NCBI GenBank assembly: GCA_000004985.1 | Contig: GG738874.1 | Strand: one strand, 5' to 3' | Origin: Naegleria gruberi | Taxonomy: Eukaryota | Length of the DNA: 64,000 nt | Shown here: piece by piece, positions 12,501 to 58,161 of the stretch | Numbering within the stretch: the first letter of the stretch is position 1 | Layout of the letters: the number at the start of each line of letters is the position of its first letter | The notes under the pieces: model-generated | What the model saw: the letters and a program-made list of their open reading frames with translations, nothing else | Databases searched by the model: none | What the model was told of the DNA's origin: nothing | Made by a program: the position numbers and the translations under genes

Positions 12501-12661
12501 GAAGCAAAAACAGGAGAAGTTGAATATGATGATAAACTATTTATATGATGTGATGATGATTCAACTCCTTCAAATACTGTATTCTCATCCAACAAACGCT
12601 CCTCTCTTCTGAAGAAACTATCCGAACTATCAGAATTGTTCATCATTTTTTTTAATTTCAA
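9584..12661 (-). CDS. Bifunctional aspartokinase / diaminopimelate decarboxylase (LysC-LysA fusion); intronless, 1025 aa
   Basis: The N-terminal half carries an amino-acid-kinase fold ('DVVLFGVGGSNSDLSVAIYATKLDIGSVDFWTNTGGIYTSSDMKTTNAKFVLELSYHEALEIATSDNFKILQPRS') followed by ACT-like repeats. The C-terminal half is a PLP-dependent DAP decarboxylase ('IFFAIKSNPNVEILKIF', 'HAHVGSG', 'IDCGGGLGVPY', 'ICESGDVFGNDR', 'CTAGSYGFSMSSNYN'). Confidence 0.85.
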   Translation of the reverse strand: MKLKKMMNNSDSSDSFFRREERLLDENTVFEGVESSSHHINSLSSYSTSPVFASGSVLSNTLSLMKTHHHSKFYLCTFDSGLLTKKKGLNFILSQIVSEKKRLHELDENAKIIIVAPSTLNEDEGTKMLKYIQSLSQKKDDDSFESLQSESIVERYLTEFLEPLCQLYKQYPALETVTFNEYRAKMKQSLIGVNLLSESTPKVIAKIIGYYSEMVCNFLLEFLQSEEINHSFSAALLDSKKYLTTAVEEVTHSDKVNFTIYEQRKQDQYLRANYDSPLVDTDLIEELKTSEADILITQGNMGCDGKGDVVLFGVGGSNSDLSVAIYATKLDIGSVDFWTNTGGIYTSSDMKTTNAKFVLELSYHEALEIATSDNFKILQPRSLKLLQEFDIQIRIRSVKLLKRFQSGQIDKEYITLIQSENDEEKSSEEHVTSLTYEEKTPHVKCICIRRDILMVSIDTLDMWQKVGFLADVFSKFKKYNISVDFVTTSEANITITFDATAKLDNDILNKLVNDLRSMNCRVEIIGPCAALSLIGKNIRSFLPRLSSGLKYFSGQKIHSVALAASDVNLTFLLDQNNSNEQLLKELHDWVFIKQAIDSQYIGPSWTELFETQKQKINDVSGKHVWWRVKQNQLLELMQAEDQPLYVYDVDQFYANAQKLINISTKCGGPVDTIFFAIKSNPNVEILKIFEGIGFGLECVSIDEVRMVCNLFPNIDKSRILFTPNFAPKKEYREAISLGVMLTIDSLYPLMNWSELLRGKSVLLRIDPGAGKGHHAKVKTSGVQSKFGIHISDIPQAIELCEQFSITVMGLHAHVGSGILDEAEAWKKTATTLTQLISEYPKLAKDVKLIDCGGGLGVPYVPYKQTELDLGEVAKAMTEFKLNNNPTNVKLCMEPGRFLTANAGVLLARVTQIKNKNFKLFIGIETGMNSLIRPTLYNSHHEIVNLSKISNPDSDDPAESTMVADIVGPICESGDVFGNDRPISSETREGDVLCICTAGSYGFSMSSNYNNRAPAKEVFIPSSKKE

Positions 12662-14337: not shown

Positions 14338-16275
14338 ATGGGTCAACATCACACCTCCAATAATTCTGATGTAGCAACAATTCAAAATCCAGAAACATCA
14401 ACATCATCACTCGCTTCCAGTAGTCAGAATTTGATAGAACCAACACCACCTCTCACTCCCCGAAGTAGAAAACAAAGAGCAATATCAAATTTAAATTTAT
14501 CAACTGAATCCCTGTCAAGTCAAACGTCAAATTCATCAACACAAAATGTTAAAATATTATTACTAGGACTTAATGGAGCAGGTTTGTTTTTTCTCTTAGT
14601 TTTTAATATTTACTTTTGGATCCAAAATAGGAAAATCAACAATTATTAAAAAGTTGAAGGAATATATAACAGAAAAGAATTCATTACACGATGAAAATCT
14701 TGTAGATCATCTTGCTCTGAACAAAACTTTTAGAGATATTATTCATTTCCATGCATTGAATGGAATTAAACAATTAATTTTGGCATCTGAAAAGCTTGAC
14801 ATTTCCATTCTACCAAGACACTCTGAACAAAAGAATGATATTGAATTTGCCATCAGTTATTTGAGTAATTTACATTTTCGTTATGGAGAACATGTGTTGA
14901 CAAGTGAAGTTGCAAGATTAATGAAATTATTGTGGGAACAACGTGGAGCTAAGGAAATTCATTCGGAATTTATTGAATATAGAAATCAACAAGCACAATT
15001 GTTGCAACAGAAACAATTGAACGAAGCTGTTTCTGAAAATGCAACTGAAAATCATGAAAATCAAGAAAATCATGATGAAAAACAAAACGAAACTAGTACA
15101 AATGAAACTAATGCCAGTGCAACAACTGAAACTGCTAATTTGAATGAAACAGCAACTGAACCTTCAGCAGCTACTGTTGCCGAAACCGAAACAACTGAAA
15201 CCAATAATGAAGTGAACGAAACTGTTGCCGAAACTCCACAAGTCAGAGTTGATACTGAAGAAGAAGATGTAAGAGCAGTTGCCATCAATGACAAACACTT
15301 CAACGCAGGTGAAATCAATTGCTTTACTCTCTATAAGGATTTGTATAATTTGGACTTTTTCATGAGTAATATTGACAGAATTTCAGAGTTTGACTACGTA
15401 CCAACCGATGAAGATGTAAAATATTGTCAAACTCACTTGAAAGAAGAAAAGAAAGGTATTGAAGAAATTGAATTTGACTTTAGTGGTTCTAAATATACAA
15501 TTTATTGTGTGGAAGGTCAGAATAATGATGGAAGAAAGTGGCTCTTCCTCTTCCAAGGTGTGGACATTGTCTTATTCTTGTGTCCAATTGGTGATTTTGA
15601 TGTCATTCCATCATCACTCGATAGAAAGAATATTGTTCGTGAGAGGTAAGTGAAAATGATCTTGTTTTTATTGAACTATTTATTGTAAAATTATACTCAA
15701 CATACAGTTTGGACTTTTTCAGTAAAATGTGTAATAGTAAATGGTTCAGAAATACACCTGCCATCCTACTCCTCTCCAAATGGGATTCATTCCGTGAAAA
15801 GATTACCAATACTCCTCTAACTTTCTGTTTTGAAGATTACGATGGCGATCATCACAGTTATCAACATGCTCTCAAATTTCTCATTTCAAAATTCAATCAT
15901 GTGAGAGATAAGGAAGGAAAAGGACTCATCAATACCAATATTTATCAACAATTTTCCACAATGGACATGACTCACGAAGAGTTGGCCAATAATTTGGGAG
16001 GAACCATTAAGAATATTCGAATTGAACAGAAAGAAATGGAAAGAAAACAAAAGAGAGAATCCACTCATCGATTAGCTGGCGATCCAAACTCACCCAATAT
16101 TAGCTCAGCAGGTAGTCACACCCATTCCAATTCAAGTGGTGAGGCCATTTCACCAAAAAGTCCAGCTAGGTCAAATAGTGTGAATTCTTCGCCCTCTTCT
16201 GTCTCTACATCAGGAACTGAAAATATCAAACACAAATTATTTGCAGGACTTTTACAAAAATTAAAGAAAAAGTAA
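14338..16275 (+). CDS. Divergent heterotrimeric G-protein alpha-subunit-like protein; exons 14338..14581, 14631..15645 and 15708..16275
   Basis: The P-loop is split by a phase-1 intron (donor GT at 14582, acceptor AG at 14630) and reads 'KILLLGLNGAG|KSTIIKKLK'. The switch II region is 'FDFSGSKYTIYCVEGQNNDGRKWLFLFQGVDIVLFLCPIGDFD'. The G4 region is 'SKMCNSKWFRNTPAILLLSKWDSFREKI...TFCFEDY', with Gly2 after the start Met. Intron 2 is a phase-2 GTAAGT at 15646 to the AG at 15707. Confidence 0.7.
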
Positions 16276-19263: not shown

Positions 19264-21153
19264 TTAAACAATTTCAACAGTTCCCATGTTGAATCCACAG
19301 TCCCCATTTCTTCCTCCTTGCGTACCAACAGATACAATGACGAAATCTAATCTAATTTTGGTTCCATTCAAAGTTCCCTTATAAGTGGCAACTCTACCAT
19401 CTTCCCACTTTGCAGTGACATCCATGAAATTGTTCAAGAAGGTTCCAGAGTATGTCTTGGCATATGATTGTCCAGCATTCTTATTCTTTCCTGAAACATT
19501 ACCAAATTCTACAAAATTCAATATAAATTTCTTAGAGCTAAAACTTACTATCAACATTGAAAGTCATCTTCCAACCATCTACTTCAGAATTCTATAAACC
19601 TTATTAGTTTTGAATAATCCTTAAAAAACTTACACATGATGAGCCATTCCATTTAGTCCAAAATGTTTTACCACTGATATTGAAAGACTTGGTTTCTGAT
19701 GGACTGCTACTAGTTTCAAATAATGTTCCAGTATTAAATCCACAATCTCCAACATGACCACCTTGAGTACCAACAGCAGTAATGGTAAAATCAAGTCTGA
19801 CCTTATTTCCAGTGACAGTTCCTTTATATGTGGCTGTTCTACCATCATCCCATCTAGCAGTAACATCCATGATATTATTTCTAAAAGTTCCACTATAATG
19901 CTTTCTGATGGAATTTTTACTATCATTCTTATTACTTCCAGAAACATTTCCGTTTGCTTAATATGTGTAAGTCCGAATAAAGATGAAAATAACCTACCAT
20001 CAACTTCAAATACCATTTCCCAACCCTCTACAGCAGAATTACAACCTAAAAGATGTAAATTAGAAATATAAATCTTAATACTTACCAGCCCCATTCCAAC
20101 GAGTCCAATTTGTAATTCCGTCCTTTCCACCTCCAATTCTGTAAAACTTATTCTTTTGTTGAATTGGTTGTACCATAGGTTGAACCATTGGTTGAACTAC
20201 AGGTTGTACTATTGGTTGTTGTTGATATACAGGTGGTTGTTGATACATTGGTTGTTGCATTTGGGGTTGCATTTGTTGTTGATATGGTGGTTGTTGACCA
20301 TATGGAGGTTGCATTGGATAAGAAGGTGCAGTAGGTTGTCCAAAAGGTTGATAAGGATTAAAGTTTTGTTGAGGAACAGTTGGTTGTTGTGGAAACATTG
20401 GTTGATTGGTAGTTGGATAAATTGGTTGATACATTGGTGGCTGTTGTTGCATTGGTTGTTGTTGTCCAGTTCTTCTAAAACAATCACCATTAGGCAATTG
20501 CCATGTATTAATATCCATAGTTTCAACCTTAAGAATTTGTTCACTTCCTTGATTTTGGAAAACCAAATACAATACAAATACATTTCTATTGTTATCACGA
20601 ACAGTGTAGGTATCACAAATTCTTCCATCGGTTTGATTTTTCAAAACAAAATGTCCTCCTTCATGCATAGTACATTTCCAAACCTTTAATTTATACAAAA
20701 TGTATAAAACAACAATTATTTCAAATACCTACCTTTCCAGAATTTTCGGTAAAATCAGCTCCGATCAAAGGAGGAACATCTTGAATAACAGTTGAAGCTG
20801 GTTGAGACAATCCAGTTGAATAATTCATAGAATGAATTCTAGTAAAGGTCTCATTAGTTGCTACTAATTGTGACCCATCAACTGAAGGAACAAACTTCAT
20901 ATTGGCATGTCCATCAAATCTTTGTAAATTAATATATAAATTTTAAAATTGTCATCAAACTATGAAACACCTACGTTGCAAATAAGACCCATTGTAATCC
21001 CCCGTTCAATGGCACAGCTATACCAGTAGCATTTCTATTAGTACCATCTTGAACCCATTGGAAGGTATTACCGAATTGTGTGGCTCTCCAAATTCTTCCT
21101 GATCTTTCAATCCACTCACCATCTAGTCTTGGTGCAACATTACCCATTTTCAA
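19264..21153 (-). CDS. Multi-exon protein with repeated beta-rich (lectin-like) modules and a Pro/Gln-rich linker (at least 6 exons)
   Basis: The gene starts 'MGNVAPRLDGEWIERSGRIW...'. Exons are joined by GTAGGT/GTAAGT donors. The ~50-aa module '...MDVTA(R/K)W(D/E)DGR(T/V)ATYKGT..G.K(V/I)RLDF.I..VGTQGG..GDCGFN(T/M)GT' is repeated, as is 'W.(K/R)WNG(A/S)'. Exon 20075..20698 encodes a P/Q/M/Y-rich linker 'QQQPPMYQPIYPTTNQPMFPQQ...VQPMVQPMVQPIQQ'. Confidence 0.45.
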
Positions 21154-21401: not shown

Positions 21402-23417
21402 TTAAACTTGTTCGATTGGAATGGCCACCGATACTCTTGGTGAGATATCATCTTGTAGTGCCTCTTCCTTAGTGATGTTTTCAATTCCATCATCTTCTGA
21501 TATATTGTTGGCGGCAATGATTTGTTGATTTGGATCCATGTTTTGGAATTTGAGATGATCCTCAGAGAGTGACTTGGCAATTTGTCTTTCAACTTCATTA
21601 AATAAATCATCTGGGAGAATATCAAAGTATTGGTATTCTTCTAATTGATTGTTGAAAGAGTCAATCTCTTTGACTAGTAGTTCAACATCTGAAACTGACA
21701 CCCTGGAGAGAATAGTTCTAATTTCAGTGTATGGTTCGAGAAATTGGGACCAGATTTCAAAGACAAGATTTTGCTTCTCCTTTTCAATCTTTTTAAGCTT
21801 CTTCTCACTTTTACGAATACTGTGGATCTCAGTTTCTGAGGGTTGATTTTTGATAGAGTCCCTATTCTTTTCTAAAGTCAAGTATTGTTTTGATTTTTCA
21901 AACAAGTCAACTTGTACCTGTACGGATTGAGAGGAAACTTCCTTATATTCACTGACCAAATCAAGGAATAAGAAACTCACTTCCAATTCTGAGGAGTTGG
22001 AGCAATATTGTTTAAATCTTTGCTTTTGGGTTGGATCTTTCAATGTGTCGAGAACCATCGCTGCATTCACTTGTTGTAACTTTTTCTGGTTCTGCTGTGA
22101 GGTCTTTAAACTGATACCAAATATTATGATCACTAAGGGTATGACAATTAAAATGGAGAGACCTAGAAGTGCCAAAGAGGTTACGTTACTGTAAAAACCA
22201 ATGTCTGTCGCATAGATACTTTCATTGAATAACCTATCAAGGAAATCTCTAAACAAAACGCCGTCAGCCATCTCTGCATTCACAAAGTCTGACGAATTCA
22301 TATAGAATTGAGCTACCAATTGATTAGTCACAGATGGAAGTTGTTGCTGATCATTCTTAGTTCCATTCTTTGGTCCTCCTCCACCTCCTGGTGGCTTAGT
22401 ACCACCTCCACCTCCTCCACCTGGAGGTTTAGTACCTCCTTGATTTCTGTCTCCATCTCTGTGAGTTTCGTTTGTGAACTTATTTCCCCAGTCCATGTTT
22501 GTTCCATTGAATGTTAAATTCATGGTCAATTCCCAGACTCTCAAAACATCTAAACTATAAATTGAATTGGGATCTCTTGAACCATTCAGATACATGTACT
22601 CTGTTTCAATGGATGGAATGTTATTCAAAATATTGGTCAATGAATTGGTGAATGATGTTTTGCCATTCCTGAACAATTCTAATGGATACTTGGCTTGTAC
22701 AGAACCTCTATTAAAAGCACCTAATCTCACAGCTGTCTTCATATCATTGTAGGAAGATATGGCTGTAGCTCTATTTGTTAGCAACTGAGCGACTGGAACT
22801 TGGCTCACATAAAAATATTGAAGAATGGTAACTGCTGCAATAGCCATCAACACCACAATATTCAAAACTAAAGCCATCACTGATAACAACGAAACTAATC
22901 CAAACTTGACATCTCTATATCTGGTTGGCAAACAAAAACAGCAGCAAAACACTGAAAACTTGGTACTCTCAATCTTATTAAGAAACTTGCCAAACAATAC
23001 TAGAGTTCCAAACAAGATAATTGCAAGAAAGGATGGTTCTTGGGAGTTGTGATTTGAATCAGTACCTTGACTGCAAGTCTCATTAGCAATGTCCTTCTCA
23101 TTGATTTCCTTCGCTCCTGTTCTACCTTTTCTCTTGAGTGAGTCAATGAATGGAGTTGGTTTCATTGTATTTCCATACATGATTTCATCAATGGCCACAA
23201 CACTGTCATCATTATCATCCATTGAATCGAGAGAACAATCTGTGTTTTGGGAGGAATCTTCAGCAGTGATTGAATTTTCTCTACCTCGCATGCAATGTTT
23301 TGGATCAAGATATTCATTGTTTTGATTGACCTCAGTTGTATTTGTGAGTTGTGGAGCTGAAATGTCATTAGTCCTTTCAACACTAGGTGTTGACTCGGCA
23401 ACACTGTCAGTAATCAT
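21402..23417 (-). CDS. Multi-pass membrane protein with a C-terminal RGS-like domain
   Basis: Hydrophobic helices occur at about residues 120-200 and about 420-445. The extracellular region has N-glycosylation sites and a Gly-rich 'GGTKPPGGGGGGGTKPPGGGGGP' stretch. The cytoplasmic 'QRFKQYCSNSSELEVSFLFLDLVSEYKEV...NLVFEIWSQFLEPYTEIRTILSRV' fits the RGS fold consensus (F..F..SE.SEEN..FW..V..YK ... IY..FL). Confidence 0.5.
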   Translation of the reverse strand: MITDSVAESTPSVERTNDISAPQLTNTTEVNQNNEYLDPKHCMRGRENSITAEDSSQNTDCSLDSMDDNDDSVVAIDEIMYGNTMKPTPFIDSLKRKGRTGAKEINEKDIANETCSQGTDSNHNSQEPSFLAIILFGTLVLFGKFLNKIESTKFSVFCCCFCLPTRYRDVKFGLVSLLSVMALVLNIVVLMAIAAVTILQYFYVSQVPVAQLLTNRATAISSYNDMKTAVRLGAFNRGSVQAKYPLELFRNGKTSFTNSLTNILNNIPSIETEYMYLNGSRDPNSIYSLDVLRVWELTMNLTFNGTNMDWGNKFTNETHRDGDRNQGGTKPPGGGGGGGTKPPGGGGGPKNGTKNDQQQLPSVTNQLVAQFYMNSSDFVNAEMADGVLFRDFLDRLFNESIYATDIGFYSNVTSLALLGLSILIVIPLVIIIFGISLKTSQQNQKKLQQVNAAMVLDTLKDPTQKQRFKQYCSNSSELEVSFLFLDLVSEYKEVSSQSVQVQVDLFEKSKQYLTLEKNRDSIKNQPSETEIHSIRKSEKKLKKIEKEKQNLVFEIWSQFLEPYTEIRTILSRVSVSDVELLVKEIDSFNNQLEEYQYFDILPDDLFNEVERQIAKSLSEDHLKFQNMDPNQQIIAANNISEDDGIENITKEEALQDDISPRVSVAIPIEQV

Positions 23418-23876: not shown

Positions 23877-25616
23877 ATGAGCAACAAACAAGTGCGGAAG
23901 AAACGGTCGGCATCGTCTTCAAAGAGGAAACGTGTTACACTGCCACATCAACCTTCGACTGAGGAGGAACAACCAACAATAGAGGAGGATATTGAATTGG
24001 ATCATACACCTAAGAAGGTGAAATCGGATGTTGCATTAGAGCCGGAGATTGAAACACCAACAGAAACTGAAGAACCTATAGTAGCAAAAGTAACTTCTGA
24101 TGATTCCGATGATGATCTGTTGAATGATACTTCATTTGCTCAATTTTGTGATCCATCTATTGTTAAGAAAGTAGGATTTAATGAAAATTGCTTGATTGAC
24201 TATGAATATGAGAGGAAATTAATTGAGCAACAGAAAAAGGATATGGATGAAACTTTAAGAGTAAAGAGGATCAATGATGAATTAAATAGATTGATACAGG
24301 AAGAAATTAATAACTCCAACACAAGAATTGATTTGAACAGTTTAACTAATGATCAAAAGAAAGATCACTTGAAGAAATTGATGGAAGGAACAGGTAATGA
24401 AATAGAAATATCGATACTTGAACATGTAAATAACGAAGGGAGTTATGATCAATATTATAAGGATCTTAGAATACAGTTATTTTGTGAGGAAATGAGTAGA
24501 TTCAATGTATTTAAAATTGCGGGCTATGTTTCTGTTAAATCTATTAATGCAGACAATTTTATTTCCGAGTTTGTTCAGTTCTTACAACCAAAATATGAAT
24601 ATTGTGCAGAAAGATATGATTTATTTTGCAATACTATTGAATATTCTGTGCAAGAAATTGGGTCAAATGATATTTTAGATGACTTAGGACTTGCTTGCTT
24701 GCAACCAACAAAGGAAATGAATCAACCTTTTGTTTCAGTTGAAGAGGCTGTTATAGTGCTTGGATTACTTGATAAGAAAAAGTGCATACGCCTACAACGT
24801 TTAATAAGAAAAACAGTAGACTCTTATGTAAATGGAAGGGAAATTGATATTAGTGAACATGATTTAGCTTGTCTAGCCATTCATTTTCTAATTTCTCAAT
24901 ACTTTAATTTCGGTAATTATATAAGCAAGCCAGACACGACTTTAAATCCATATTCAATCTATAGCTCCCTTTCAAAGACAAAACTTATTAATACTACAGA
25001 ATTAACTTTTATTTTGAAAAGTTTGGAAGGCGACTATGCCACGTTAATAACCAATTTATTCAATCTATTTGGTTTCTCTCAAGGAGAGGAAGATTCCACT
25101 CTTCAAGGTGAAACTACCATTGATTCTTTGAATTCAGTTATTCAAAAATATTTTCCTCCCACTTTTTCCAAGTTTTTAATTTCCAGACCATTTTACAATA
25201 CCAGTAAGACAATAATAACTTTTTACAAGAAGTTCTTTGCTTGTATGCTGATTAATGTAACTGGTATTACGGAAATTTCACATGAGGAGATATTTTCCAC
25301 TGATTACGAGTTCAACAACACAACCAATCGTAAATTAGTTACCTCTGTCATACCTATATTGGAACGTCTACTGGAACAATGTAAGGAAAGAAAAGAATTT
25401 GAATTCCCTCTTCTTCATCTCATCAAAAATGTTCTCTCTATTTTTGATATTTGTGCAGATCTTGGAAGAGATTCATCTTTTGTCAGAGATGAATTACTTA
25501 AACTTTCTACAAGTTTAAGACCTCATTTCCAATATTCTGATTTTACATTCCTCAAACTTCAATTCCCTTACCTAGATGCTTCGTTCATGCAAAATTTGAC
25601 TGATGAAGACAGTTGA
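23877..25616 (+). CDS. Hypothetical nuclear protein (579 aa) with a basic NLS-like N-terminus and an acidic region
   Basis: Single long ORF beginning 'MSNKQVRKKRSASSSKRKRV', with an acidic stretch 'TSDDSDDDLL'. No recognisable catalytic motifs. Confidence 0.4.
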   Translation: MSNKQVRKKRSASSSKRKRVTLPHQPSTEEEQPTIEEDIELDHTPKKVKSDVALEPEIETPTETEEPIVAKVTSDDSDDDLLNDTSFAQFCDPSIVKKVGFNENCLIDYEYERKLIEQQKKDMDETLRVKRINDELNRLIQEEINNSNTRIDLNSLTNDQKKDHLKKLMEGTGNEIEISILEHVNNEGSYDQYYKDLRIQLFCEEMSRFNVFKIAGYVSVKSINADNFISEFVQFLQPKYEYCAERYDLFCNTIEYSVQEIGSNDILDDLGLACLQPTKEMNQPFVSVEEAVIVLGLLDKKKCIRLQRLIRKTVDSYVNGREIDISEHDLACLAIHFLISQYFNFGNYISKPDTTLNPYSIYSSLSKTKLINTTELTFILKSLEGDYATLITNLFNLFGFSQGEEDSTLQGETTIDSLNSVIQKYFPPTFSKFLISRPFYNTSKTIITFYKKFFACMLINVTGITEISHEEIFSTDYEFNNTTNRKLVTSVIPILERLLEQCKERKEFEFPLLHLIKNVLSIFDICADLGRDSSFVRDELLKLSTSLRPHFQYSDFTFLKLQFPYLDASFMQNLTDEDS

Positions 25617-26053
25617 TACATCAGTAAGGAGCAATACTAATAGCAGTGTAATTATACAACAACAATTATACCTTACAAATTCGCATCAACCATTTTTGTG
25701 TTTAAAACAGTAGTTTTAATTTCAATTACGAAATGTATTTACTAAAAGGTGACATATGGATGACAGAATGCTGCAGAAATAATTCCACTACAATACTGAA
25801 TATTGGCGGGAGAAGTAAATCAAATCACATCAAACAAGAAATACTCTTCAGTCAACTCTTGTATTGCAGTGTATTCCTATAAATACAAAGCCAATTTTCT
25901 ACTAAAGTGAACTAAACAAAAAAAAGATACAACTCTTGTATTGTATATCTGTAAATTAATTGTAAACAACCTGTACATTCTAGGATTTTGTAAAATAATC
26001 TACTGTATTCAATGAGAACAAGTGCTGTAAAGAATGAGACATGGAATCGTGCA

Positions 26054-29000
26054 ATGATTCCTCGCTCTCTACTAATGCTAAGTTTGATTTTACTTTGGAC
26101 TGTTGCCTTTGTCGAGTCAAAGAAACAACAAACCAAGCCAACTAAATTTGCCAAGATTGTTTGCCCACCTAATTCAAACCTCACTTACACGTTCAAAACC
26201 ACTTCCTTAATTGGAAATCGTGGTCTTGCTTCAAGTAAGAAGGGTTCTTCTGGAAATGTTGAAACTCAACTTTCTGGTGAATTGGTTTTAACTTGTCCAT
26301 CCAGAAAAACCAATGAAAAGTCAGGTCTCATTGATAAGAGTGCTAAGAATAAGAATGTTATTCTCCTCACTTTCAATCAAGTATCCTTCCTCCAATTTCA
26401 AGGTTCTTCAAAGGGTGTCAGTGGTAGAAAATATCGTCGTCTTTTAACTTCAAAAGATATGACCAAGAAAATGAACGAATTTCCAATGATTTTCATTCAA
26501 TCAAAGACTGGTCATATTCAAAAGATGGTTTTCAGACAATCTGAAACTCGTTATATTCGTTCTTTAAAGAAGGGTATTCTCAGATTATTCACTACTGAAA
26601 CTAGACGTCAATCTCGTTCTCAAACTGATGGTGTATTGGGCAAGTATCGTCAAAATTATCACAAGCAATTTAGACGTGGAGTTGTCTCTAAGAAACGTAA
26701 AGGATTGGCAATTTATCAAAAATTCACTCAAGATGATTTCATTTCATTCCTCCCTCCAAGTAAGAGACATTTACATTATGAAGGTGCTCATCTTGTTAGT
26801 GTTTCCTTGAAAAAGAAGGTGATTAGAAAGGCAGGTTTGAGATTGAAGGTCACTTTTGGTCCATCAAAGGAAGTTCACTATGCTTTTAAGGAATTTGAAA
26901 GAATTGCTCATTCAAAGATTAAGAAGGATGATTTAGTTGATAATGAATCCAAGTCAAATGAATTGGAAACTCTATTTGTTGGATCTGTAAAGCTCAAAAA
27001 GGCAGAAAAGACAAGTCAAGATTTGAAAGAAGAAATTGGACAAGTAATTATCAATTTGGAAAAGAATGGTCGTGATGCCAAGTTGGGTTCTCAATTCCAA
27101 TTTGAGAATTCTTTCATGACTAACAAGTATGATAAGAAAGCTATGAATCAAATCAATAGAAGACGTTTCTCTACTAAATTCTTCCGTCGTTTGCTTAATG
27201 CTGCCAAGACAGATCCATCCTTGTCAAGAAATGCTAATTCCTTACTTTCAGCTCTTGCCAAGTATAGCAAATTGCATCCAATCAAGTCTGCCAAGATTTT
27301 GTTAAATGAATTGAAGAAGGGTGTTGACAAGTTACTCAATTCAAATGACATGACAGAAAAGCAAAAGATTTCTCTCAAGAATTATTTGGAAAGCGTTCAA
27401 AACTTGGTTGCTACTATTAGATCTACTCCAATTCAAGAAAAACTTATCAAACTCTCTACTTTGCATCCATATTTGGCTAAAAATTACATTTACTCATCCG
27501 TAGTTGTTCCAACTCCACCAAAGTCTGCCTTCTCTTTCTTAAAGCTATTGAAATCAAAGGGCCTTAGCGCATTCTCTCGTAGAGGAAACAAAAAGTTCAA
27601 ATTCTCATCTCAAATGAATGAAGATGTCAAGAAGAACGCCTTCATGGCCTATGCTGACCTCGCTCACAGAATTAGAGATAACAGAGTTCAACAACATATT
27701 GTCAAGGAAATTCTTACCAAGATTTCTGCTTCAACCAATTTGAATGAACTCCAAACTTATATTCATGCTTTGAATAATGCTGGTAAAGGTGTTGATATTG
27801 AAATTATCAGATCATTCTTGACTGATAAGAGAATTCCAGACACTATTAAGGTTTTACTTGCTGACAATTTGAAGAAGCGTCAAACTGATGAAAGTGCTGT
27901 CGATAGTTTGATCAATTCATTGGTTGTTACTAAGGGTTTGAGCTCTGTTGTTAAGGCCTCTCTCATCAATGCTCAAACTGAAAGAGAAAAGCATCTCAAA
28001 TCGGGTGCTTCAGTTACCCACTTTTCTAAGGCCCATAAGAAGAATAAGAGCGAGGAAATTAGAACTGCTGTCAAGAATTACTTGTACACTGTTGGTACTA
28101 AACAATCAGGTGAACAACTTTCAAAGGCATTAAAGATCAAGAATAAGACCTCTAATGCTCTTGCTAAAAAGGTCAAGAAATTCCAATCCAGCATTGAATC
28201 CCGTGCTCTCCTTTCTCATGAAGATTTGACACTTTTAGAAGCCTTTGATGAAATGGAAAGAGCTCAAGTTTTGGGTATTGGAAGATTTTTCAGAAGATTG
28301 GGTTCCAGAATTAAGAGTGCTGCTAGAGCTGTTGGTGGTGCTGTCCGTAGAGCTGCAAGGGTTGTTGGTAGAGGTGTTGCAAGAGCTGCCAGAGCTGTAG
28401 GTAGAGCAGTTGTTACAGGTGCCAAAGCTGTTGCTAAGGGTGTTGTTAAAGCAGCCAATTGGGTCAAAGAAAAGGTTGAAGCAGCTATTAATGCTGTAAC
28501 GAATGTTGTCAATAAGATTAAGAGCTATTTCGGTCCTGCCACCTTTGCAAATCAACAAGCTTGCATCAAAGTTAGTGTTGACAGTGAAATGTGTTTGAGA
28601 GAATCAACATTCATTGAATTCATTAGAAAACAAGGTGACATGAGTACAATTAAGAAGGCCAAACATTTCAGTTTCGAAGCCCTAGTCGGATGTCAAAGTA
28701 TTAATGTTTACACTGGTTTCCTTGTCTATGCAGGTGCTTCATTCGAATGTAGTGCTGAAAATAGTGGAATTGATATTCTCTTGTTGGCTAAAGCCAAGTT
28801 AAATGCTAAGCTTTTCAGTAAGGAATTTGTTGTCATTGATGGTAGTGCTGAATTGACCAAGAGAGGTGAACAACCATTAACTGATAACATTTATCTCAAA
28901 GTTTTCCAAACTACATTTGTAAATGGTAACTTTGTTCCTGAAAAGATTAGAAAGGTCATTGATGCATGTTTCTCTGAAACTAAACCAATCTTTGAAAAGA

Positions 29001-30409
29001 GATTCCCAAAGCTTTTCAGTTACAATATCCAAATAATGGCTGGACCTATCCCAATATCCTTCAATTTTAATACTGCTTTAAACACAGGAGTTGAGTTGAA
29101 ATATGGTATCTGTCTTGCAAAATTGGAAGCCAGTTCTTCATTGGAGCCATACGTTTCATTGGAACTTACAGGTTCTGCCTCAGTTGGAGTGCCAGTTGCC
29201 AAAGCTGGAATCAAATTGACTGCAACCATTACTTACAGAATTATTCCACGTATTGCTTTTGAAAAGTGTAATTTGTGTGCCATGTTGCAACAACGTTTAG
29301 ATGGTGTGAAGTTTGATGTAGGTTTGTCTGCAACATTCATGAAATGGACAAAGAATTGGGATTTCTACTCAAAGCAAACAAAGCCATACGTCAAGACCTT
29401 ATTCGAAAAGTGTGTTAGCTCAACTGGATATAAGCCATCCAGCAACGATTCTCCTCTCCAATTTACTAACAAACGTGATTCAGAACAACCAGAAGCTGCT
29501 GCTTCTACCGATAGTAGTGCTCCAGAACAGAATCCACAAGGATACAATACTGAAGGTGCCCCAAGTACTAAGAATGTTGCTACTGAAGGTCCAAGTAAAT
29601 TGAGAAAGAAGGTTGGTAGTGCATTGTCAAAGAAGGCCACTTCCTATCAATCCATGTTTGGTCCAAATGCTGAAAAGATTGCAGTTTCTGGAGGTGCTCC
29701 ACCAAAACCAAGCAAGCAAACTTTGAGAAGTCCAGTCACCAGTCAAAGAGATGTTGTCTGGTCAACTGCATTCTTGAAGCAAAAGGTTCCAGCTGCAGCT
29801 ATTAAGGATCTAGGACTTGAAAAGTTGAGAAGACTTCCAAAGGAATACTTTGAGATTAAGAGTGAAGATAGAGCAAAGATTCCAAATGAAATTTTGCTTC
29901 TCCCACCTGCTGATTTCATTAAATTCCTTGGAAAATTACCAGATCGTTATCAAAAGTCAACTGAAACTGAAATACCAAGCAATGCATCTGTCAAGGTTTG
30001 GTCTTCTGAAGTTTTAGAAAAGCAAATTCCAAAGCAAATTTATAGTAAGGTTCCACTCAGATATTTGAGACACTTGTATCCTGATATTCTTCAAATCCGT
30101 AAACGTGTCATGTTACAAATCCCATCAACATCCTATACTCAAGGAAATAAGGGAATTGTCACTTGGGTCTGTAAAAATTATGGTGATTTGTGTAAGACTT
30201 TAGTTGAATCTATCAAGAAGAACGAAGAGGTTGACTATTCTGATTTGCTCAGTTTGATTCCAGCCGAACAACCAAAAGTTGTCTCCTCGAAATCATCACC
30301 AAAATCAAACAACTCAACTAAGGCAAGCAGAAATCCTAAAGGAAGAGATTATTTCTCAAGAGGAAGACCAGTTGAACTCGACATCGAATTCCATAGAATT
30401 AAACAATAG
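26054..30409 (+). CDS. Large secreted protein, possibly of the large-lipid-transfer-protein (vitellogenin/apolipophorin-like) family; contains an internal Arg/Ala/Val-rich amphipathic repeat
   Basis: The signal peptide is 'MIPRSLLMLSLILLWTVAFVES'. The N-terminal 'TYTFKTTSLIGNRGLASSKKGSSGNVETQLSGELVLTCPS' and 'ETRYIRSLKKGILRLF' resemble the start of the LLTP N-sheet. The single ORF is about 1450 aa with a basic C-terminus. The family assignment is tentative. Confidence 0.5.
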   Translation: MIPRSLLMLSLILLWTVAFVESKKQQTKPTKFAKIVCPPNSNLTYTFKTTSLIGNRGLASSKKGSSGNVETQLSGELVLTCPSRKTNEKSGLIDKSAKNKNVILLTFNQVSFLQFQGSSKGVSGRKYRRLLTSKDMTKKMNEFPMIFIQSKTGHIQKMVFRQSETRYIRSLKKGILRLFTTETRRQSRSQTDGVLGKYRQNYHKQFRRGVVSKKRKGLAIYQKFTQDDFISFLPPSKRHLHYEGAHLVSVSLKKKVIRKAGLRLKVTFGPSKEVHYAFKEFERIAHSKIKKDDLVDNESKSNELETLFVGSVKLKKAEKTSQDLKEEIGQVIINLEKNGRDAKLGSQFQFENSFMTNKYDKKAMNQINRRRFSTKFFRRLLNAAKTDPSLSRNANSLLSALAKYSKLHPIKSAKILLNELKKGVDKLLNSNDMTEKQKISLKNYLESVQNLVATIRSTPIQEKLIKLSTLHPYLAKNYIYSSVVVPTPPKSAFSFLKLLKSKGLSAFSRRGNKKFKFSSQMNEDVKKNAFMAYADLAHRIRDNRVQQHIVKEILTKISASTNLNELQTYIHALNNAGKGVDIEIIRSFLTDKRIPDTIKVLLADNLKKRQTDESAVDSLINSLVVTKGLSSVVKASLINAQTEREKHLKSGASVTHFSKAHKKNKSEEIRTAVKNYLYTVGTKQSGEQLSKALKIKNKTSNALAKKVKKFQSSIESRALLSHEDLTLLEAFDEMERAQVLGIGRFFRRLGSRIKSAARAVGGAVRRAARVVGRGVARAARAVGRAVVTGAKAVAKGVVKAANWVKEKVEAAINAVTNVVNKIKSYFGPATFANQQACIKVSVDSEMCLRESTFIEFIRKQGDMSTIKKAKHFSFEALVGCQSINVYTGFLVYAGASFECSAENSGIDILLLAKAKLNAKLFSKEFVVIDGSAELTKRGEQPLTDNIYLKVFQTTFVNGNFVPEKIRKVIDACFSETKPIFEKRFPKLFSYNIQIMAGPIPISFNFNTALNTGVELKYGICLAKLEASSSLEPYVSLELTGSASVGVPVAKAGIKLTATITYRIIPRIAFEKCNLCAMLQQRLDGVKFDVGLSATFMKWTKNWDFYSKQTKPYVKTLFEKCVSSTGYKPSSNDSPLQFTNKRDSEQPEAAASTDSSAPEQNPQGYNTEGAPSTKNVATEGPSKLRKKVGSALSKKATSYQSMFGPNAEKIAVSGGAPPKPSKQTLRSPVTSQRDVVWSTAFLKQKVPAAAIKDLGLEKLRRLPKEYFEIKSEDRAKIPNEILLLPPADFIKFLGKLPDRYQKSTETEIPSNASVKVWSSEVLEKQIPKQIYSKVPLRYLRHLYPDILQIRKRVMLQIPSTSYTQGNKGIVTWVCKNYGDLCKTLVESIKKNEEVDYSDLLSLIPAEQPKVVSSKSSPKSNNSTKASRNPKGRDYFSRGRPVELDIEFHRIKQ

Positions 30410-31842: not shown

Positions 31843-34800
31843 GCAATTAATCAGATACAATCTGCTTTTATTAATGCTATGATTAGTTTAAAAGAGTCGA
31901 ATAGCAACACAGAGAGAAATTGGAAGCTGTACATATTATTTACTATTGTCCATATTCATGTTTGGATAACAACAATCATTGTTGGAATACAAGGAAACTT
32001 TAAAATGGGCCTCTACGGAAATTGGGTGTGGAAGATATTGAACTATTTAGTGACATTATCTTTGGATGATTTGCCTGATAGTGTCATGTCATATAATGCA
32101 ATGATAGGTGTCTCTTCTATTTGTATTACCTTCTCAGTTTTTGGGCTTCTGATATTTTACTACTCTGCCAAACAATTTCAAATTGCTAGCAGGCATATGA
32201 AATTTCTTCAATTTATAATGAGAGTTTATGGTTTTTTAACGTTTTTTGCAAGTTTTACTATGGTTTTTATTATGACCTCTTTTATTGATTGTAACTATTC
32301 TAGTTCAGTAATTTTTGAAGGATTTGATCAACCACAAATGGTTCTCAATAGATTTCCATCTCAAATGTGCTTCTCTTCTACAAATATTACAATGATTGTT
32401 TTGAGCTATGTCGGAATTCTTGCATTAATGTTATTGACATTCATGAGTGTTTTTACTAGAGGAGAGACACATGTAAAAGCAAGTAGTAGCCCCTTTGTTT
32501 CAGAGCATGTGCTATTTCAAGTAGCAGTTTTGATAATTACCCAATTACAAATAACCCTTAACTATTCTATCCCTTTTGAATACTCGTACCTGAGAAGTAT
32601 ATCTCATATAGTCTTATCACTAATTTTATTACCTATACTATTTTACTATTTACCCTTCTTTAAAAGAGTTGATAATTCAATAATGGTTGGATTATGCCTT
32701 GCCAAGTCCTTCCTTGGTGTCGCACCCCTAATTTCTTTTCTTGTAAATACACAAGGAGATTGGGGGATGGGTTTAGGATTTTCTCTTTCTGGATTTGGAT
32801 TTATTCTCACTGGTTTCTTGATTGGTTTTATTGTTACGGAAATATATACTAGACTTCTCTACTATAGAGCAAGAAAAATTATTATTACTGCCTTAACAGA
32901 ATGTGAGGTTTTGATTATTGATTTTGATGAAAATACTAGTGATGCTGATAGATATCGTAACCTTAGATCACTTTTTGAGAGAGAAGCCTTCTCGTTATTT
33001 AAACTATTCGAAGAGAAGAAAATGATGAGACACTTGTCAATGTTTTTCAAATTTTCAATGGTGTCTGGCAATAAGGGAAACTTGGATGATAGTTTTCTAT
33101 TTTCTGATGTTGATTTAGTTGTATCAATAATCAAATCTGTGGCGCAACAGAAGAACTTTCAAAATTACCCTCAGCTGATCTTAACATCAAGCATAGTCTG
33201 TGCACATTTTTGGGACCCTGAGAAAAATGGATTGGTATCTCATACTCCTCAATCTTCATCGTATGAATACGCAGTTGCTTTACTTAAAAAGATCAAGGCA
33301 AGTCAATTAGGATTTTTGTCTGATTTAGTAATGAAAAGTTTATTGAAACAATACCATACTGCATCACAAAATGAAAGTAGTGGAAAACTATCAGAACTGA
33401 AGGGTATTATTGATATTAAGGAGTTTATTTCAAAGTTAGGAAAGAAAATGGAAGATATAACAGTACAAAGGAAAATATTTTGGAAAGAATTGATGAACGA
33501 TGTTGTAGACTATGGCAAAATAATCAACATTAACAGAACAATTGCAAAATTAACCCTAGAGTGCAACACTACATTTGAAAACTTGATGAGCTATTTCCAT
33601 AGTTATGACAAAAATCTTCTCAGATTATTTGCCAGTTTCAATGAAAAGGTTTTATTCAATCAACAAAGAGCTGATGAGTTGTATCAAGATGCATCCTTGA
33701 TAGAAGATGAAGATTCGAAAAGAATTTCAGAAAAGCAAGCTCTGACATCATCAATCAACAATACCTCAAACAGTAGTCTTCAAAGTCATAGGTTTAAACC
33801 TGGAAATAGAATTTTACCTATAAGAGTAGGAACAAGAGTTAATGTTGACCTTGAAGCCGATTCAAATAGAATATCAGCTAAAATATTCGATGGTTTGGAG
33901 AATGGAGATTTTTCGAAAGAGCTAAACGAAGATCCAACTGCACTCGATCTTGCTGAGGCTGCTGATTCCCCAGAGATTAAAAAGGAAAATTTGATAAGAA
34001 CTGCACTAACAACTCCATTGAAACCTGTTGCCATCTACTTTTCTTACATTTCTTTGATAGGACTAATTATTTTAATGTTTTCTGGAGCTGTTGCACTTTC
34101 ATTATTTACAGTTATTACCTCGACCAAGAACCTTACAGATATTAAGCAATCATGCATTCCAGCATTGGGTTCAGTTCGTTTGATTTCTGATTTAAGAGTA
34201 AACCAGATTTTTAGAACATTATATTCAGGTAATACAACCTTCTCCTCCACTCTACAAAAATTTGGATTTTCTAGTATGAATGATACTGTAAATTACCATA
34301 GAGGAAAAACTTTGGATACCATTGAAAAATTCAAGCATTTAGAAAAATTAGCTTTTAGTGGAAAATGGAGTGCTGAAATGTTTCACGATTATTCAACTGA
34401 CTCTACAGAAATGTACTATCCGGAAATTCCTCACCACAACAAGGAGGGACATTTTATTAATGCTAGACCAAGAAATATGTCTGTTTCTGGTGTTACAAAC
34501 ACTATGATTCAGACTGGAAAAGATTTACTAACCTATTCTGATTCTCAGTATAATGAAACAATAGGTTCTTTTCAGTTTATGTATCTTTGGCACAATAGAG
34601 ATACCTTACCAGATATGTACGGAAAATTCTGTAATACTATTTCGTCTAGATTCTACTTTGGTATTCAAGATATGGAGAGTGTGTATGGGTACTATTTGAC
34701 AGCTATTGCAATTGTGACAGTACTGATATTCATATTTATGATTGCAATGTTCATTTTCCTCAATAGGAAATTAAAAATGATTCTCAAATTGTTTGAGAGA

Positions 34801-57708: not shown

Positions 57709-58161
57709 TAAATTTCCCTCCGTTATTGGTGAAAATAATCGAGATGCAAAAGATGGCGACACTGTAAGGATATTCGAGAGCAGTAATAACAACACAGTAA
57801 AGATATTGCTCTCGTTTTTTTTCAAACATCCTTCAATGAAATTCTCAGCAAGGAGTTTGAATACATGTAGTGCAAGTGGTAATGTTTCCTGGTAAGTCAA
57901 ACATCAAATATTATTTTCTGTCCTGGCTTGTGAAAGTCATAGATTTTTCGGACTATAATGACAACCAGTATTTTGAAACAAAATCGAATGTTGATGATGC
58001 AAAAACATTTGGCTATGTATGTTATTAATAAGGGAGATTGTTTACGATTTTCTTAATTATATTACCTGGACAACAAATTCTCCTCTCGTCAGACTCTAAT
58101 ATTCAGCAGATAGATGCTCTCAGTTCCCATATTTGAACTACTCATCGAGTAGAGATGCTCC

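What the first reader, a model, noticed from the sequence alone, without database searches (positions are those of the whole stretch)
21402..23417. Membrane-anchored RGS-like protein a few kb from the atypical G-alpha
The protein combines at least three TM helices, a glycosylated Gly-rich ectodomain and a cytoplasmic RGS-fold segment. This resembles the receptor-like 7TM-RGS proteins described in plants. It lies about 5 kb from the divergent G-alpha on the opposite strand, which suggests a co-located regulator/G-alpha pair.
Basis: inference. Interest (0 to 1): 0.55.

Follow-up and report, generated by a model that had tools for sequence, protein, structure and literature searches.

The report
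Divergent two-TM membrane RGS-like protein
This Naegleria gruberi gene encodes a membrane protein with an outward-facing loop and an inward-facing, highly diverged RGS-type domain; it is a hard-to-detect member of an amoeba-specific family of membrane-anchored G-protein regulators, not a plant-style 7TM-RGS, and its link to the nearby G-alpha gene is unproven.

The parts
21402..23417 (-). Complete single-exon CDS, 671 aa plus stop. Identical to the N. gruberi 'predicted protein' P0001.
   Evidence: dN/dS is 0.10 against the 79%-identical orthologue on L002.
23037..23417 (-). N-terminal tail, aa 1-127. It is acidic (net charge -14 over aa 1-137), low in complexity and probably cytoplasmic. It carries two conserved motifs, DSVVAIDEIMYG (aa 71-82) and DSLKRKGR (aa 92-99).
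   Evidence: Alignment A1 invariant columns. Charge and coordinates. dN/dS 0.25.
22980..23036 (-). First hydrophobic segment, aa 128-146. It is a weak and doubtful TM helix. It may be membrane-embedded or re-entrant rather than spanning.
   Evidence: Kyte-Doolittle score 1.97 against 2.8-3.2 for the other two segments. There is no equivalent in P0004 or in most family members.
22902..22949 (-). Juxtamembrane Cys cluster, FCCCFCLPTRYRDVKF (aa 157-172). It is basic and probably lies on the cytoplasmic face. Acting as a palmitoylation site is inferred only.
   Evidence: C160, C162, L163, P164, Y167, K171 and F172 are invariant in A1. A Cys-rich motif (TCCG.xEL in the main family) precedes TM1 in most members.
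22806..22901 (-). Conserved TM helix A, aa 173-204.
   Evidence: Kyte-Doolittle score 2.77. Conserved in all relatives.
22179..22805 (-). Inter-TM loop, the putative ectodomain, aa 205-413. It is predicted all-helical at low confidence and contains no Cys. It carries 8 N-X-S/T sequons and the conserved motif RATAISSYNDMKTAVRLGAFNRGSVQAKYPL (aa 216-246).
   Evidence: dN/dS 0.087. No Pfam or PDB sequence match.
22371..22439 (-). Gly-rich low-complexity linker with two GGTKPPGGGGG units, aa 327-349, inside the loop. It is variable between relatives.
   Evidence: Absent in P0004.
22107..22178 (-). Conserved TM helix B, aa 414-437, followed by a basic cytoplasmic stretch (KTSQQNQKK).
   Evidence: Kyte-Doolittle score 3.16. 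P427 is nearly invariant in 75 relatives.
21540..22064 (-). Cytoplasmic RGS-homology (RH) domain, aa 452-626. Substitutions at the canonical contact residues, in RGS4 numbering: S85 to E477, E87 kept as E479, N88 to V480, N128 to I569, D163 to E619, R167 to K623, and F168 kept as F624.
21792..21926 (-). Family-specific insertion, aa 498-542. It extends the helices that correspond to RGS4 alpha4 and alpha5 into a long antiparallel helical hairpin.
   Evidence: Alignment A5. Model helices 32-73 and 84-116 of the domain. Removing the insertion is what lets the family profile hit PDB RGS domains. dN/dS 0.04.
21405..21539 (-). C-terminal tail, aa 627-671. It is acidic and poorly conserved, and is predicted to be disordered.
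   Evidence: dN/dS 0.25.

Best explanation
The gene encodes a receptor-like membrane protein of a Naegleria/Willaertia-specific family that I call '2TM-loop-RGS'.

Shown:
- Two conserved TM helices flank a roughly 210 aa helical, sequon-rich loop.
- A Cys-rich basic motif precedes the first conserved TM helix.
- The C-terminal 175 aa fold as an RGS-homology domain. A long helical hairpin is inserted between the helices that correspond to RGS4 alpha4 and alpha5.
- All structured parts are under purifying selection.

Inferred:
- Both termini are cytoplasmic and the loop is extracellular or lumenal.
- The protein holds its RH domain at the membrane, where myristoylated G-alpha subunits reside.
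- The loop may act as a sensor, transmitting through TM helix B into RGS helix 1. This resembles in principle the 7TM-RGS 'receptor-GAPs'.
- The target's subclade has replaced the two asparagines that canonical RGS domains use to grip G-alpha switch I and II (RGS4 N88 to Val, N128 to Ile). It most likely has weak or no classical GAP activity. It would then act as a G-alpha-binding or scaffolding RH domain, as in GRKs, axin and the SNX-RGS proteins, or it recognises an atypical G-alpha through an altered interface.

Its position 5 kb from an atypical G-alpha is most likely coincidental.
For: Identity and reality of the gene:
- Identical to the annotated N. gruberi protein.
- dN/dS is 0.10 overall, 0.07 in the RH domain and 0.087 in the loop.

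Family:
- A profile search of 1.84 billion representatives found 76 proteins, 60 of them at E<=1e-10.
- 64 of them show two strong TM helices with a median 152 aa loop and a C-terminal domain.
- All named members come from N. gruberi, N. lovaniensis, N. fowleri or Willaertia magna. They include 'RGS and transmembrane domain-containing protein'.

RGS nature:
- 47 of 75 members hit PF00615, best E=7.8e-12.
- In P0012 the Pfam RGS match (aa 385-547, 33.6 bits, above the 23.9 cut-off) covers the region that aligns to target aa 435-625 at BLASTP E=2e-18.
- The family profile with the insertion removed hits 28 PDB sequences at E<=0.01, all RGS/RH domains, with RGS10 at 1.4e-6.
- The AlphaFold model of target aa 445-632 has pLDDT 92.8 and pTM 0.87.

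Loss of contact residues: column-by-column map.

Topology:
- Basic residues follow TM-B and precede TM-A.
- Sequons are enriched in the loop, p=0.023 for the target and p=1e-9 family-wide.
Against: - No direct Pfam RGS hit for the target at E<=10.
- A profile of only the ten Pfam-negative subclade members finds no RGS in the PDB, even with the insertion removed.
- Foldseek against the PDB gave no RGS hit.
- The AlphaFold model was built from an alignment that includes bona fide RGS relatives, so its fold is not independent of the homology argument.
- Loss of GAP activity is inferred from two residues only. Some RGS domains tolerate substitutions at the N128 position (own knowledge).
- The ectodomain fold, the topology, glycosylation and palmitoylation are all untested. 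The full-length model is poor (pLDDT 45.5).
- One relative (P0009) lies directly beside a G-alpha. This argues that dismissing linkage may be premature.
Confidence: 0.6

Rival explanations
1. It is a fully functional receptor-GAP. Like AtRGS1 or the N. fowleri 7TM-RGS proteins, the membrane-anchored RGS domain accelerates GTP hydrolysis on one or more (possibly self-activating) G-alpha subunits. The extracellular loop regulates this activity.
For: - RGS fold and homology.
- Several contact positions are kept or conservatively replaced: E479 for RGS4 E87, E619 for D163, K623 for R167 and F624 for F168.
- Strong purifying selection on the domain, dN/dS 0.07.
- Naegleria 7TM-RGS domains are proven GAPs (PMC9283941).
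Against: - The RGS4 N128 and N88 equivalents are Ile and Val. They are non-Asn in 9 of the 10 aligned subclade sequences, and each position has a single Asn, in a different sequence. About 25 of 30 main-family members keep them.
- A 3-residue insertion follows the N128 position.
- PF00615 fails completely.
Confidence: 0.25
2. The RH domain no longer has anything to do with G proteins. It is a protein-interaction or membrane-trafficking scaffold, as in axin or the SNX13/14/25 sorting nexins. The protein then works in adhesion, trafficking or organelle contact.
For: - The canonical G-alpha-contacting asparagines are lost.
- The long conserved hairpin insertion (dN/dS 0.04) looks like a separate interaction or dimerisation surface.
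Against: - The nearest sequence relatives are canonical-looking RGS domains in the same architecture.
- There are no PX, PXA, DIX or other trafficking or Wnt-type domains.
Confidence: 0.15
3. The target and the atypical G-alpha 5 kb away are a functionally coupled, genomically linked pair. This would be an example of a wider habit of this subclade to sit next to degenerate G-alpha genes.
For: - The window has G-alpha 14338-16275 (+) and the target (-) in convergent orientation, 5.1 kb apart.
- Independently, on L004 the full-length relative P0009 (E=1e-31 to the target) lies 436 bp from a different atypical G-alpha, also convergent.
- Both G-alphas have degenerate catalytic motifs, and both RH domains lack the canonical Asn.
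- The chance of at least one G-alpha in the roughly 45 kb of flanks examined at other loci is 0.02-0.10.
Against: - Three unrelated genes (SDR, GDPD, Q/P-rich) separate the window pair, and convergent genes cannot share a promoter.
- The two G-alphas are not orthologues (BLASTP E=0.008).
- Six other family loci (L001, L002, L003, L005, L006, L008) show no G-alpha.
- The window case was picked because of the proximity, which is ascertainment bias.
- N. gruberi has 229 or more RGS genes (PMC3971589), so about 6.5% of genes have one within 6 kb.
Confidence: 0.1

Closest known systems
Naegleria/Willaertia '2TM-loop-RGS' paralogues, e.g. N. gruberi XP_002673536 'RGS and transmembrane domain-containing protein' (P0035) and N. 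lovaniensis C9374_007672 (P0012)
   Same: - Same architecture: Cys-rich motif, TM helix, 140-220 aa loop, TM helix, then an RGS domain with the alpha4-alpha5 hairpin insertion.
- Significant collinear similarity: BLASTP E=2e-17 and 2e-18, and profile E down to 1e-60.
   Different: - The target and its roughly ten closest relatives are invisible to PF00615.
- They lack the S-x-E-N and V-N motifs (RGS4 S85/E87/N88 and N128).
- The target has a longer loop with a Gly-rich linker, an extra weak hydrophobic segment and a 127 aa acidic N-tail.
7TM-RGS receptor-GAPs (Arabidopsis AtRGS1; N. fowleri 7TM RGS1-4, Bosch et al. 2022, PMC9283941)
   Same: - Membrane protein with a C-terminal cytoplasmic RGS-fold domain.
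- Plausible logic of an extracellular cue controlling a G-alpha regulator.
- Found in the same genus.
   Different: - Not seven TM helices (two conserved, three at most).
- The large extracellular part is a loop between the TM helices, not an N-terminal ectodomain.
- No GPS, EGF or lectin modules.
- The RGS domain is interrupted by a hairpin and lacks the catalytic-interface asparagines.
Canonical R4-type RGS domains (RGS4 in 1AGR, RGS10, RGS3)
   Same: - The family profile aligns collinearly to RGS10 at E=1.4e-6.
   Different: - 13% identity.
- A 45 aa insertion.
- N88 replaced by Val and N128 by Ile, with a 3-residue insertion after the latter.
GAP-inactive RGS-homology domains (GRK1/2/4-6, axin, SNX13/14/25)
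   Same: - RGS fold without the canonical G-alpha-contact asparagines.
- GRK4/5/6 were the top, sub-threshold, sequence hits of the subclade profile.
- The SNX-RGS proteins are also anchored by two TM helices (own knowledge).
   Different: - No kinase, DIX, PXA or PX domains.
- In the SNX proteins the TM hairpin has only a short loop and lies far from the RGS domain.
- No specific sequence relationship was shown.
Bacterial chemoreceptor and sensor-kinase topology (TM1, periplasmic helical sensor, TM2, cytoplasmic output)
   Same: Topological analogy only. Two TM helices bracket a roughly 150-210 aa helical loop, and the second TM helix runs directly into the output domain.
   Different: - No homology was detected.
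- The loop's fold is not reliably predicted.

Membership tests
RGS domain (Pfam PF00615 / RGS fold) | Match to the PF00615 profile at or above the gathering score (23.9 bits) | tested here: not met
   No Pfam family at E<=10 for the target. None for P0002-P0004 and P0006-P0011.
RGS domain (Pfam PF00615 / RGS fold) | Significant, collinear sequence homology to proteins whose aligned region passes PF00615 | tested here: met
   47 of 75 relatives hit PF00615. P0012 has RGS at 33.6 bits over aa 385-547, and this aligns to target aa 435-625 at BLASTP E=2e-18. The family profile without the insertion hits 28 PDB RGS/RH chains at E<=0.01.
RGS domain (Pfam PF00615 / RGS fold) | Nine-helix RGS fold | tested here: met
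   [not shown]
RGS domain (Pfam PF00615 / RGS fold) | Canonical G-alpha-contact residues (RGS4 S85, E87, N88, N128, D163, R167) | tested here: not met
   The equivalents are E477, E479, V480, I569, E619 and K623. Both asparagines are lost, while the main family keeps S-x-E-N in 22-25 of 30 members and V-N in 24 of 30.
RGS domain (Pfam PF00615 / RGS fold) | GTPase-accelerating activity on a G-alpha subunit | not testable with these tools
   This needs a biochemical assay.
7TM-RGS receptor-GAPs (AtRGS1-like, Nf 7TM RGS) | Seven transmembrane helices N-terminal to the RGS domain | tested here: not met
   There are three hydrophobic segments at most. Only two are conserved, and a 209 aa loop lies between them.
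7TM-RGS receptor-GAPs (AtRGS1-like, Nf 7TM RGS) | C-terminal cytoplasmic RGS domain following the last TM helix | tested here: met
   The RH domain (aa 452-626) starts 15 residues after TM-B. A basic stretch follows the TM helix.
Naegleria/Willaertia 2TM-loop-RGS family (defined in this analysis) | Two strong TM helices separated by a 140-220 aa sequon-rich, Cys-poor loop | tested here: met
   The target's loop is 209-216 aa, has 8 sequons and no Cys. The family median loop is 152 aa over 64 members.
Naegleria/Willaertia 2TM-loop-RGS family (defined in this analysis) | Cys-rich juxtamembrane motif before TM1, and an RGS domain with the alpha4-alpha5 insertion | tested here: met
   The target has CCCFCLPTRY where the main family has TCCG.xEL. 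The insertion is present in all 40 aligned domains.
Naegleria/Willaertia 2TM-loop-RGS family (defined in this analysis) | Statistically significant full-length similarity | tested here: met
   Profile E-values run from 7e-60 to 1e-3 against 1.84 billion proteins. The ectodomain HMM recovers P0006, P0009, P0008, P0010 and P0007.
SNX-RGS sorting nexins (SNX13/14/25) | PXA, PX and C-nexin domains flanking the RGS domain | tested here: not met
   No Pfam domain of any kind was found. The only link is fold similarity of the RGS domain.
Linked G-alpha/RGS gene pair | Adjacency that is conserved, or more frequent than chance | tested here: inconclusive
   The window pair is separated by 3 genes. One of seven other family loci has an adjacent G-alpha. 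The chance probability is 0.02-0.10, depending on the assumed number of G-alpha genes. The N. gruberi genome was not available for a genome-wide test.

The most novel reading that the evidence does not exclude
A subclade of Naegleria 2TM receptor-like proteins carries 'pseudo-GAP' RGS-homology domains that have lost the catalytic-interface asparagines. These proteins co-evolve with degenerate G-alpha subunits and tend to be encoded next to them. The window G-alpha has R178 replaced by His, T181 and T182 by Lys, DVGGQ by CVEGQ and NKxD by SKWD. The L004 G-alpha has its catalytic Gln replaced by Ser. On this reading the RH domain would act as a nucleotide-independent receptor-to-transducer coupling module rather than a GTPase timer, and the pairs would be genomically linked.
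Probability: 0.08. Interest if true: 0.6.

Novelty: new member of a known kind. Interest (0 to 1): 0.3.

Why it matters
Naegleria has one of the largest RGS repertoires known: 229 Pfam-detectable genes in N. gruberi, and 28 7TM-RGS plus 79 other RGS proteins in N. fowleri. Its G-protein pathways are being considered as drug targets against N. fowleri.

This case shows that profile-based censuses miss at least one whole subclade of membrane-anchored RGS-homology proteins. It also defines a 2TM-loop-RGS architecture distinct from the 7TM-RGS class, and it marks members that probably no longer work as classical GAPs.

For genome annotation, a 'predicted protein' becomes a divergent RGS-homology membrane protein. 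The biological gain is incremental unless the possible linkage to atypical G-alpha genes proves real.

Tried and rejected
Searches that gave nothing useful:
- Direct Pfam scan of the target and close homologues at E<=10: no family.
- phmmer of the whole protein against the PDB: only low-complexity noise.
- Four-sequence C-terminal profile against the PDB: the GRK6/5/4 RH domains and RGS22 came top, but at E=0.16-3.5. This is suggestive only.
- 40-sequence domain profile with the insertion left in: no RGS hit at E<=0.01 and spurious coiled-coil matches.
- Insertion-deleted profile of the ten Pfam-negative subclade members only: no RGS hit. The subclade alone is therefore not detectably RGS by sequence.
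- Foldseek of the good model against the PDB: no significant hits, because the long hairpin dominates.
- Full-length AlphaFold with four sequences: pLDDT 45.5, unusable for the ectodomain.

Resources that were unavailable or empty:
- The afdb50 fold library is not installed.
- Look-ups of N. gruberi proteins in the gene-position index: not on record.
The second gave 440 pattern matches, none confirmed.
- The supplement of PMC3971589 that holds the N. gruberi G-alpha count is not held.

Ideas rejected:
- A plant-like 7TM-RGS. The TM count is wrong.
- An SNX-type sorting nexin. There are no PX or PXA domains.
- A pseudogene or chance ORF. dN/dS is 0.10 and a full-length orthologue exists.
- The two G-alpha neighbours as orthologues from a duplicated pair. 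BLASTP E=0.008.
Full report
**What is at the coordinates.**
The window is AT-rich (about 34% GC) and gene-dense. The interval 21402-23417 is a single 671-codon ORF on the minus strand. Its product is 100% identical over its full length to an NCBI/UniRef 'predicted protein [Naegleria gruberi]'. The window is therefore N. gruberi nuclear DNA, and the public gene model is the same single exon.

A 79%-identical full-length orthologue from another Naegleria-like genome (P0002, on Logan contig L002) gives dN/dS = 0.10 overall at dS of about 1. By region the values are:
- RH domain: 0.07
- inter-TM loop: 0.087
- TM helices: 0.03-0.08
- the two tails: 0.25

The gene is real and constrained.

**Anatomy.**
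A hydropathy scan gives three hydrophobic segments.
- aa 128-146 is weak (score 1.97) and has no counterpart in homologue P0004 or in most relatives.
- aa 173-204 is strong.
- aa 414-437 is strong.

Between the first and second segments lies a basic, Cys-rich motif (FCCCFCLPTRYRDVKF). Several of its positions are invariant among the four close homologues.

The 209 aa loop between the two strong helices has these features:
- it has no cysteine;
- it holds 8 of the 13 N-X-S/T sequons in the protein (p=0.023);
- it contains a strongly conserved motif (aa 216-246);
- it contains a variable Gly-rich linker (aa 327-349), which is missing in P0004.

Basic residues precede TM-A and follow TM-B. I infer that both termini are cytoplasmic and the loop is exoplasmic. 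The first hydrophobic segment is more likely membrane-embedded than spanning. This is inference, not observation.

**Is the C-terminus an RGS domain?**
PF00615, and every other Pfam model, gives nothing at E<=10 for the target, for its three close homologues and for the next six relatives. phmmer against the PDB is uninformative. A four-sequence profile of aa 445-632 puts the GRK6/5/4 RH domains and RGS22 on top, but only at E=0.16-3.5.

The link comes from intermediates.
- A profile of aa 156-632 searched against 1.84 billion representative proteins found 76 relatives, 60 of them at E<=1e-10.
- 47 of 75 of these match PF00615, best E=7.8e-12.
- In P0012 (N. lovaniensis) the Pfam RGS match is 33.6 bits against a cut-off of 23.9 and spans aa 385-547. 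This region aligns to target aa 435-625 by plain BLASTP at E=2e-18.
- P0035, named 'RGS and transmembrane domain-containing protein [N. gruberi]', aligns from the distal loop through the TM helix to the end of the domain at E=2e-17.

**Why profiles miss it.**
The 40-sequence alignment of the domain shows a 45-60 aa insertion in every member. It lies between the helices that correspond to RGS4 alpha4 and alpha5.
- With the insertion left in, the family profile finds no RGS chain in the PDB at E<=0.01.
- With it cut out, the profile hits 28 distinct PDB sequences at E<=0.01. All are RGS or RGS-homology domains: RGS10 at 1.4e-6, then RGS3, EhRGS-RhoGEF, RGS5, 2, 4, 17, 12, 8, 16, 7, 9, 14 and 6, axin and GRK5.
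- The same operation on the ten Pfam-negative subclade sequences alone finds no RGS. The target's own branch has diverged beyond sequence detection.

**Structure.**
AlphaFold on the target domain with the 40-sequence alignment gave pLDDT 92.8 and pTM 0.87. The two helices flanking the insertion extend into a long antiparallel hairpin (domain residues 32-73 and 84-116).
- Foldseek against the PDB found nothing significant.

The RGS fold is therefore well supported. The caveat is that the model depends on an alignment that contains true RGS relatives.

**Is it likely to be a GAP?**
The RGS10 alignment fixes two equivalences. The family motif 'S-L-E-N' matches RGS 'S-E-E-N' (RGS4 S85/E87/N88), and 'S-V-N-I' matches RGS 'E-V-N-L' (RGS4 N128). 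Column counts show that the main family keeps Ser in 22 of 30 members, Glu in 24, Asn in 25, and the second Asn in 24.

The target has E477/E479/V480 and I569, with three extra residues after the latter. The ten subclade sequences have one Asn at each position, in different sequences. D163/R167/F168 are conservatively kept as E619/K623/F624.

From established RGS4-Gi-alpha1 structural work (own knowledge), N128 and N88 contact switch II/I and the catalytic Gln. RH domains without them, such as those of GRKs and axin, are not classical GAPs. I therefore infer weak or altered GAP function. This is inference from two residues. The domain is nevertheless under strong constraint (dN/dS 0.07, and 0.04 in the hairpin), so it does something specific.

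**The family.**
- 64 relatives show the same plan: a Cys-rich motif (TCCG.xEL in most), a TM helix, a loop of median 152 aa with 0-3 Cys, a second TM helix, then the RGS domain.
- Sequon density is 25 per 1000 aa in the loop against 11.6 elsewhere (Wilcoxon p=1e-9). Asn content differs only 1.2-fold.
- The target's ectodomain HMM recovers P0006, P0009, P0008, P0010 and P0007. It gives weak collinear matches just after TM1 in many others.
- Every named member comes from N. gruberi, N. lovaniensis, N. fowleri or Willaertia magna. N. fowleri has a tandem pair.

This is a heterolobosean lineage-specific expansion. It is not the 7TM-RGS class that Bosch et al. characterised (28 genes in N. fowleri, besides 79 'other' RGS proteins; PMC9283941). 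De Mendoza et al. had already noted that RGS is fused to one or more TM helices in most lineages, and that N. gruberi has 229 Pfam-RGS proteins (PMC3971589). The kind is therefore known. The target is an unrecognised, divergent member.

**The G-alpha neighbour.**
The G-alpha is real. I assembled a three-exon gene from 14338-14581, about 14632-15645 and 15708-16275, with GT-AG introns, giving 608 aa. It starts MG and has a GLNGAGKST P-loop and a large acidic insertion in the helical domain. It matches Gi-alpha chains at E of about 1e-37.

The HMMER alignment shows the following changes:
- R178 to His
- T181 and T182 to Lys
- DVGGQ to CVEGQ
- NKKD to SKWD

It is indeed atypical, and it lacks the switch-I Thr that RGS domains grip.

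Its 3' end is 5.1 kb from the target's 3' end, in convergent orientation. An SDR gene, a GDPD gene and a multi-exon Q/P-rich gene lie between them. With 229 or more RGS genes in about 41 Mb (genome size from own knowledge), a given gene has an RGS gene within 6 kb with probability of about 0.065. This single case proves nothing.

**A lead that complicates the dismissal.**
I looked up contigs for relatives. On L004, P0009 is a full-length relative (24% identity over 464 aa, E=1e-31). It ends 436 bp from the end of a convergent 371 aa G-alpha (PF00503 E=1.2e-26). That G-alpha is also atypical: its P-loop is GAQETGKT, its switch II reads FDFGGS, so the catalytic Gln is Ser, and NKxD is TKPD.

The two G-alphas are not orthologues (E=0.008). 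Six other loci (L001, L002, L003, L005, L006, L008; about 45 kb of flanks within 6 kb) have none by gene-call Pfam or by tblastn. The chance of seeing at least one is 0.02-0.10, depending on the assumed G-alpha gene number. This is suggestive at best.

**Verdict.**
The interpretation needs three corrections.
- The protein is not 7TM-like. It belongs to a distinct 2TM-loop-RGS family.
- The RGS domain is so diverged that it probably is not a canonical GAP.
- The co-location is not supported by this locus.

It is a new, divergent member of a known kind, useful for annotation and for RGS censuses in Naegleria, and of modest general interest.

Noticed in passing
window 14338-16275 (+): Three-exon G-alpha gene (exons 14338-14581, about 14632-15645 and 15708-16275; 608 aa). 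It has an MG start and the P-loop GLNGAGKST, plus a roughly 110 aa acidic, Thr-rich insertion in the helical domain. Its catalytic motifs are degenerate relative to Gi-alpha: R178 is His, T181 and T182 are Lys, DVGGQ is CVEGQ and NKKD is SKWD. It may be a poor GTPase or none at all.
   Followed up: partly
L004 282-3488: P0009, a full-length relative of the target, lies 436 bp from a convergent 371 aa atypical G-alpha. That G-alpha has the P-loop GAQETGKT, its catalytic Gln replaced by Ser and NKxD replaced by TKPD. It is not orthologous to the window G-alpha. This is the only independent hint of G-alpha linkage for this subclade.
   Followed up: partly
window 9584-12661 (-): A 1025 aa ORF combines amino-acid kinase (aspartokinase-like), ACT and Orn/DAP/Arg decarboxylase domains. 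It looks like a fusion of the first and last enzymes of the DAP-lysine pathway, which is unusual in a eukaryote.
   Followed up: no
window 31879-36655 (+): A 1333 aa ORF with TmcB-type TPR repeats is followed directly by a 252 aa ORF with PAS and adenylate/guanylate cyclase domains. They are probably one intron-split gene of the large Naegleria cyclase family.
   Followed up: no
window 23877-25616 (+): A 579 aa ORF with no Pfam match is transcribed divergently from the target across a 459 bp intergenic region. The two may share a bidirectional promoter, which makes this ORF a better co-regulation candidate than the G-alpha.
   Followed up: no
window 26012-30409 (+): A 1465 aa ORF without any Pfam match at E<=0.01.
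   Followed up: no
window 19630-21153 (-): A multi-exon Q/P-rich gene (QQPMQQQPPMYQPIYP...) lies immediately downstream of the target on the same strand. L002, the orthologous contig, also has several short called ORFs downstream of the orthologue. Their homology to this gene was not checked.
   Followed up: no
L008 6453-10516: N. fowleri carries two 2TM-loop-RGS genes in tandem (615 and 589 aa; FDP41_008207 and FDP41_008208). This shows that the family expands by local duplication.
   Followed up: no
L006 974-4662: An arrestin-domain gene (Arrestin_N/C) lies divergently upstream of the family member P0081. Arrestins are another GPCR-pathway component, but this may well be coincidence.
   Followed up: no
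window 50483-52600 (-) and L004 4094-6097: DUF4116-repeat proteins occur in the window and also next to the G-alpha on L004. The L004 protein has 14 repeats at E=2e-217. This is probably just an abundant Naegleria repeat family.
   Followed up: no
window 53302-57900 (-): Two adjacent ORFs carry the halves of a P5-type cation ATPase (E1-E2_ATPase and P5-ATPase in one; Hydrolase and Cation_ATPase in the other). They are presumably one gene split by an intron.
   Followed up: no
window 7258-8499 (+): A 413 aa ORF gives a weak match to BrxA (E=0.0024, 18.1 bits against a cut-off of 23). The match is most likely spurious in a eukaryotic genome.
   Followed up: no
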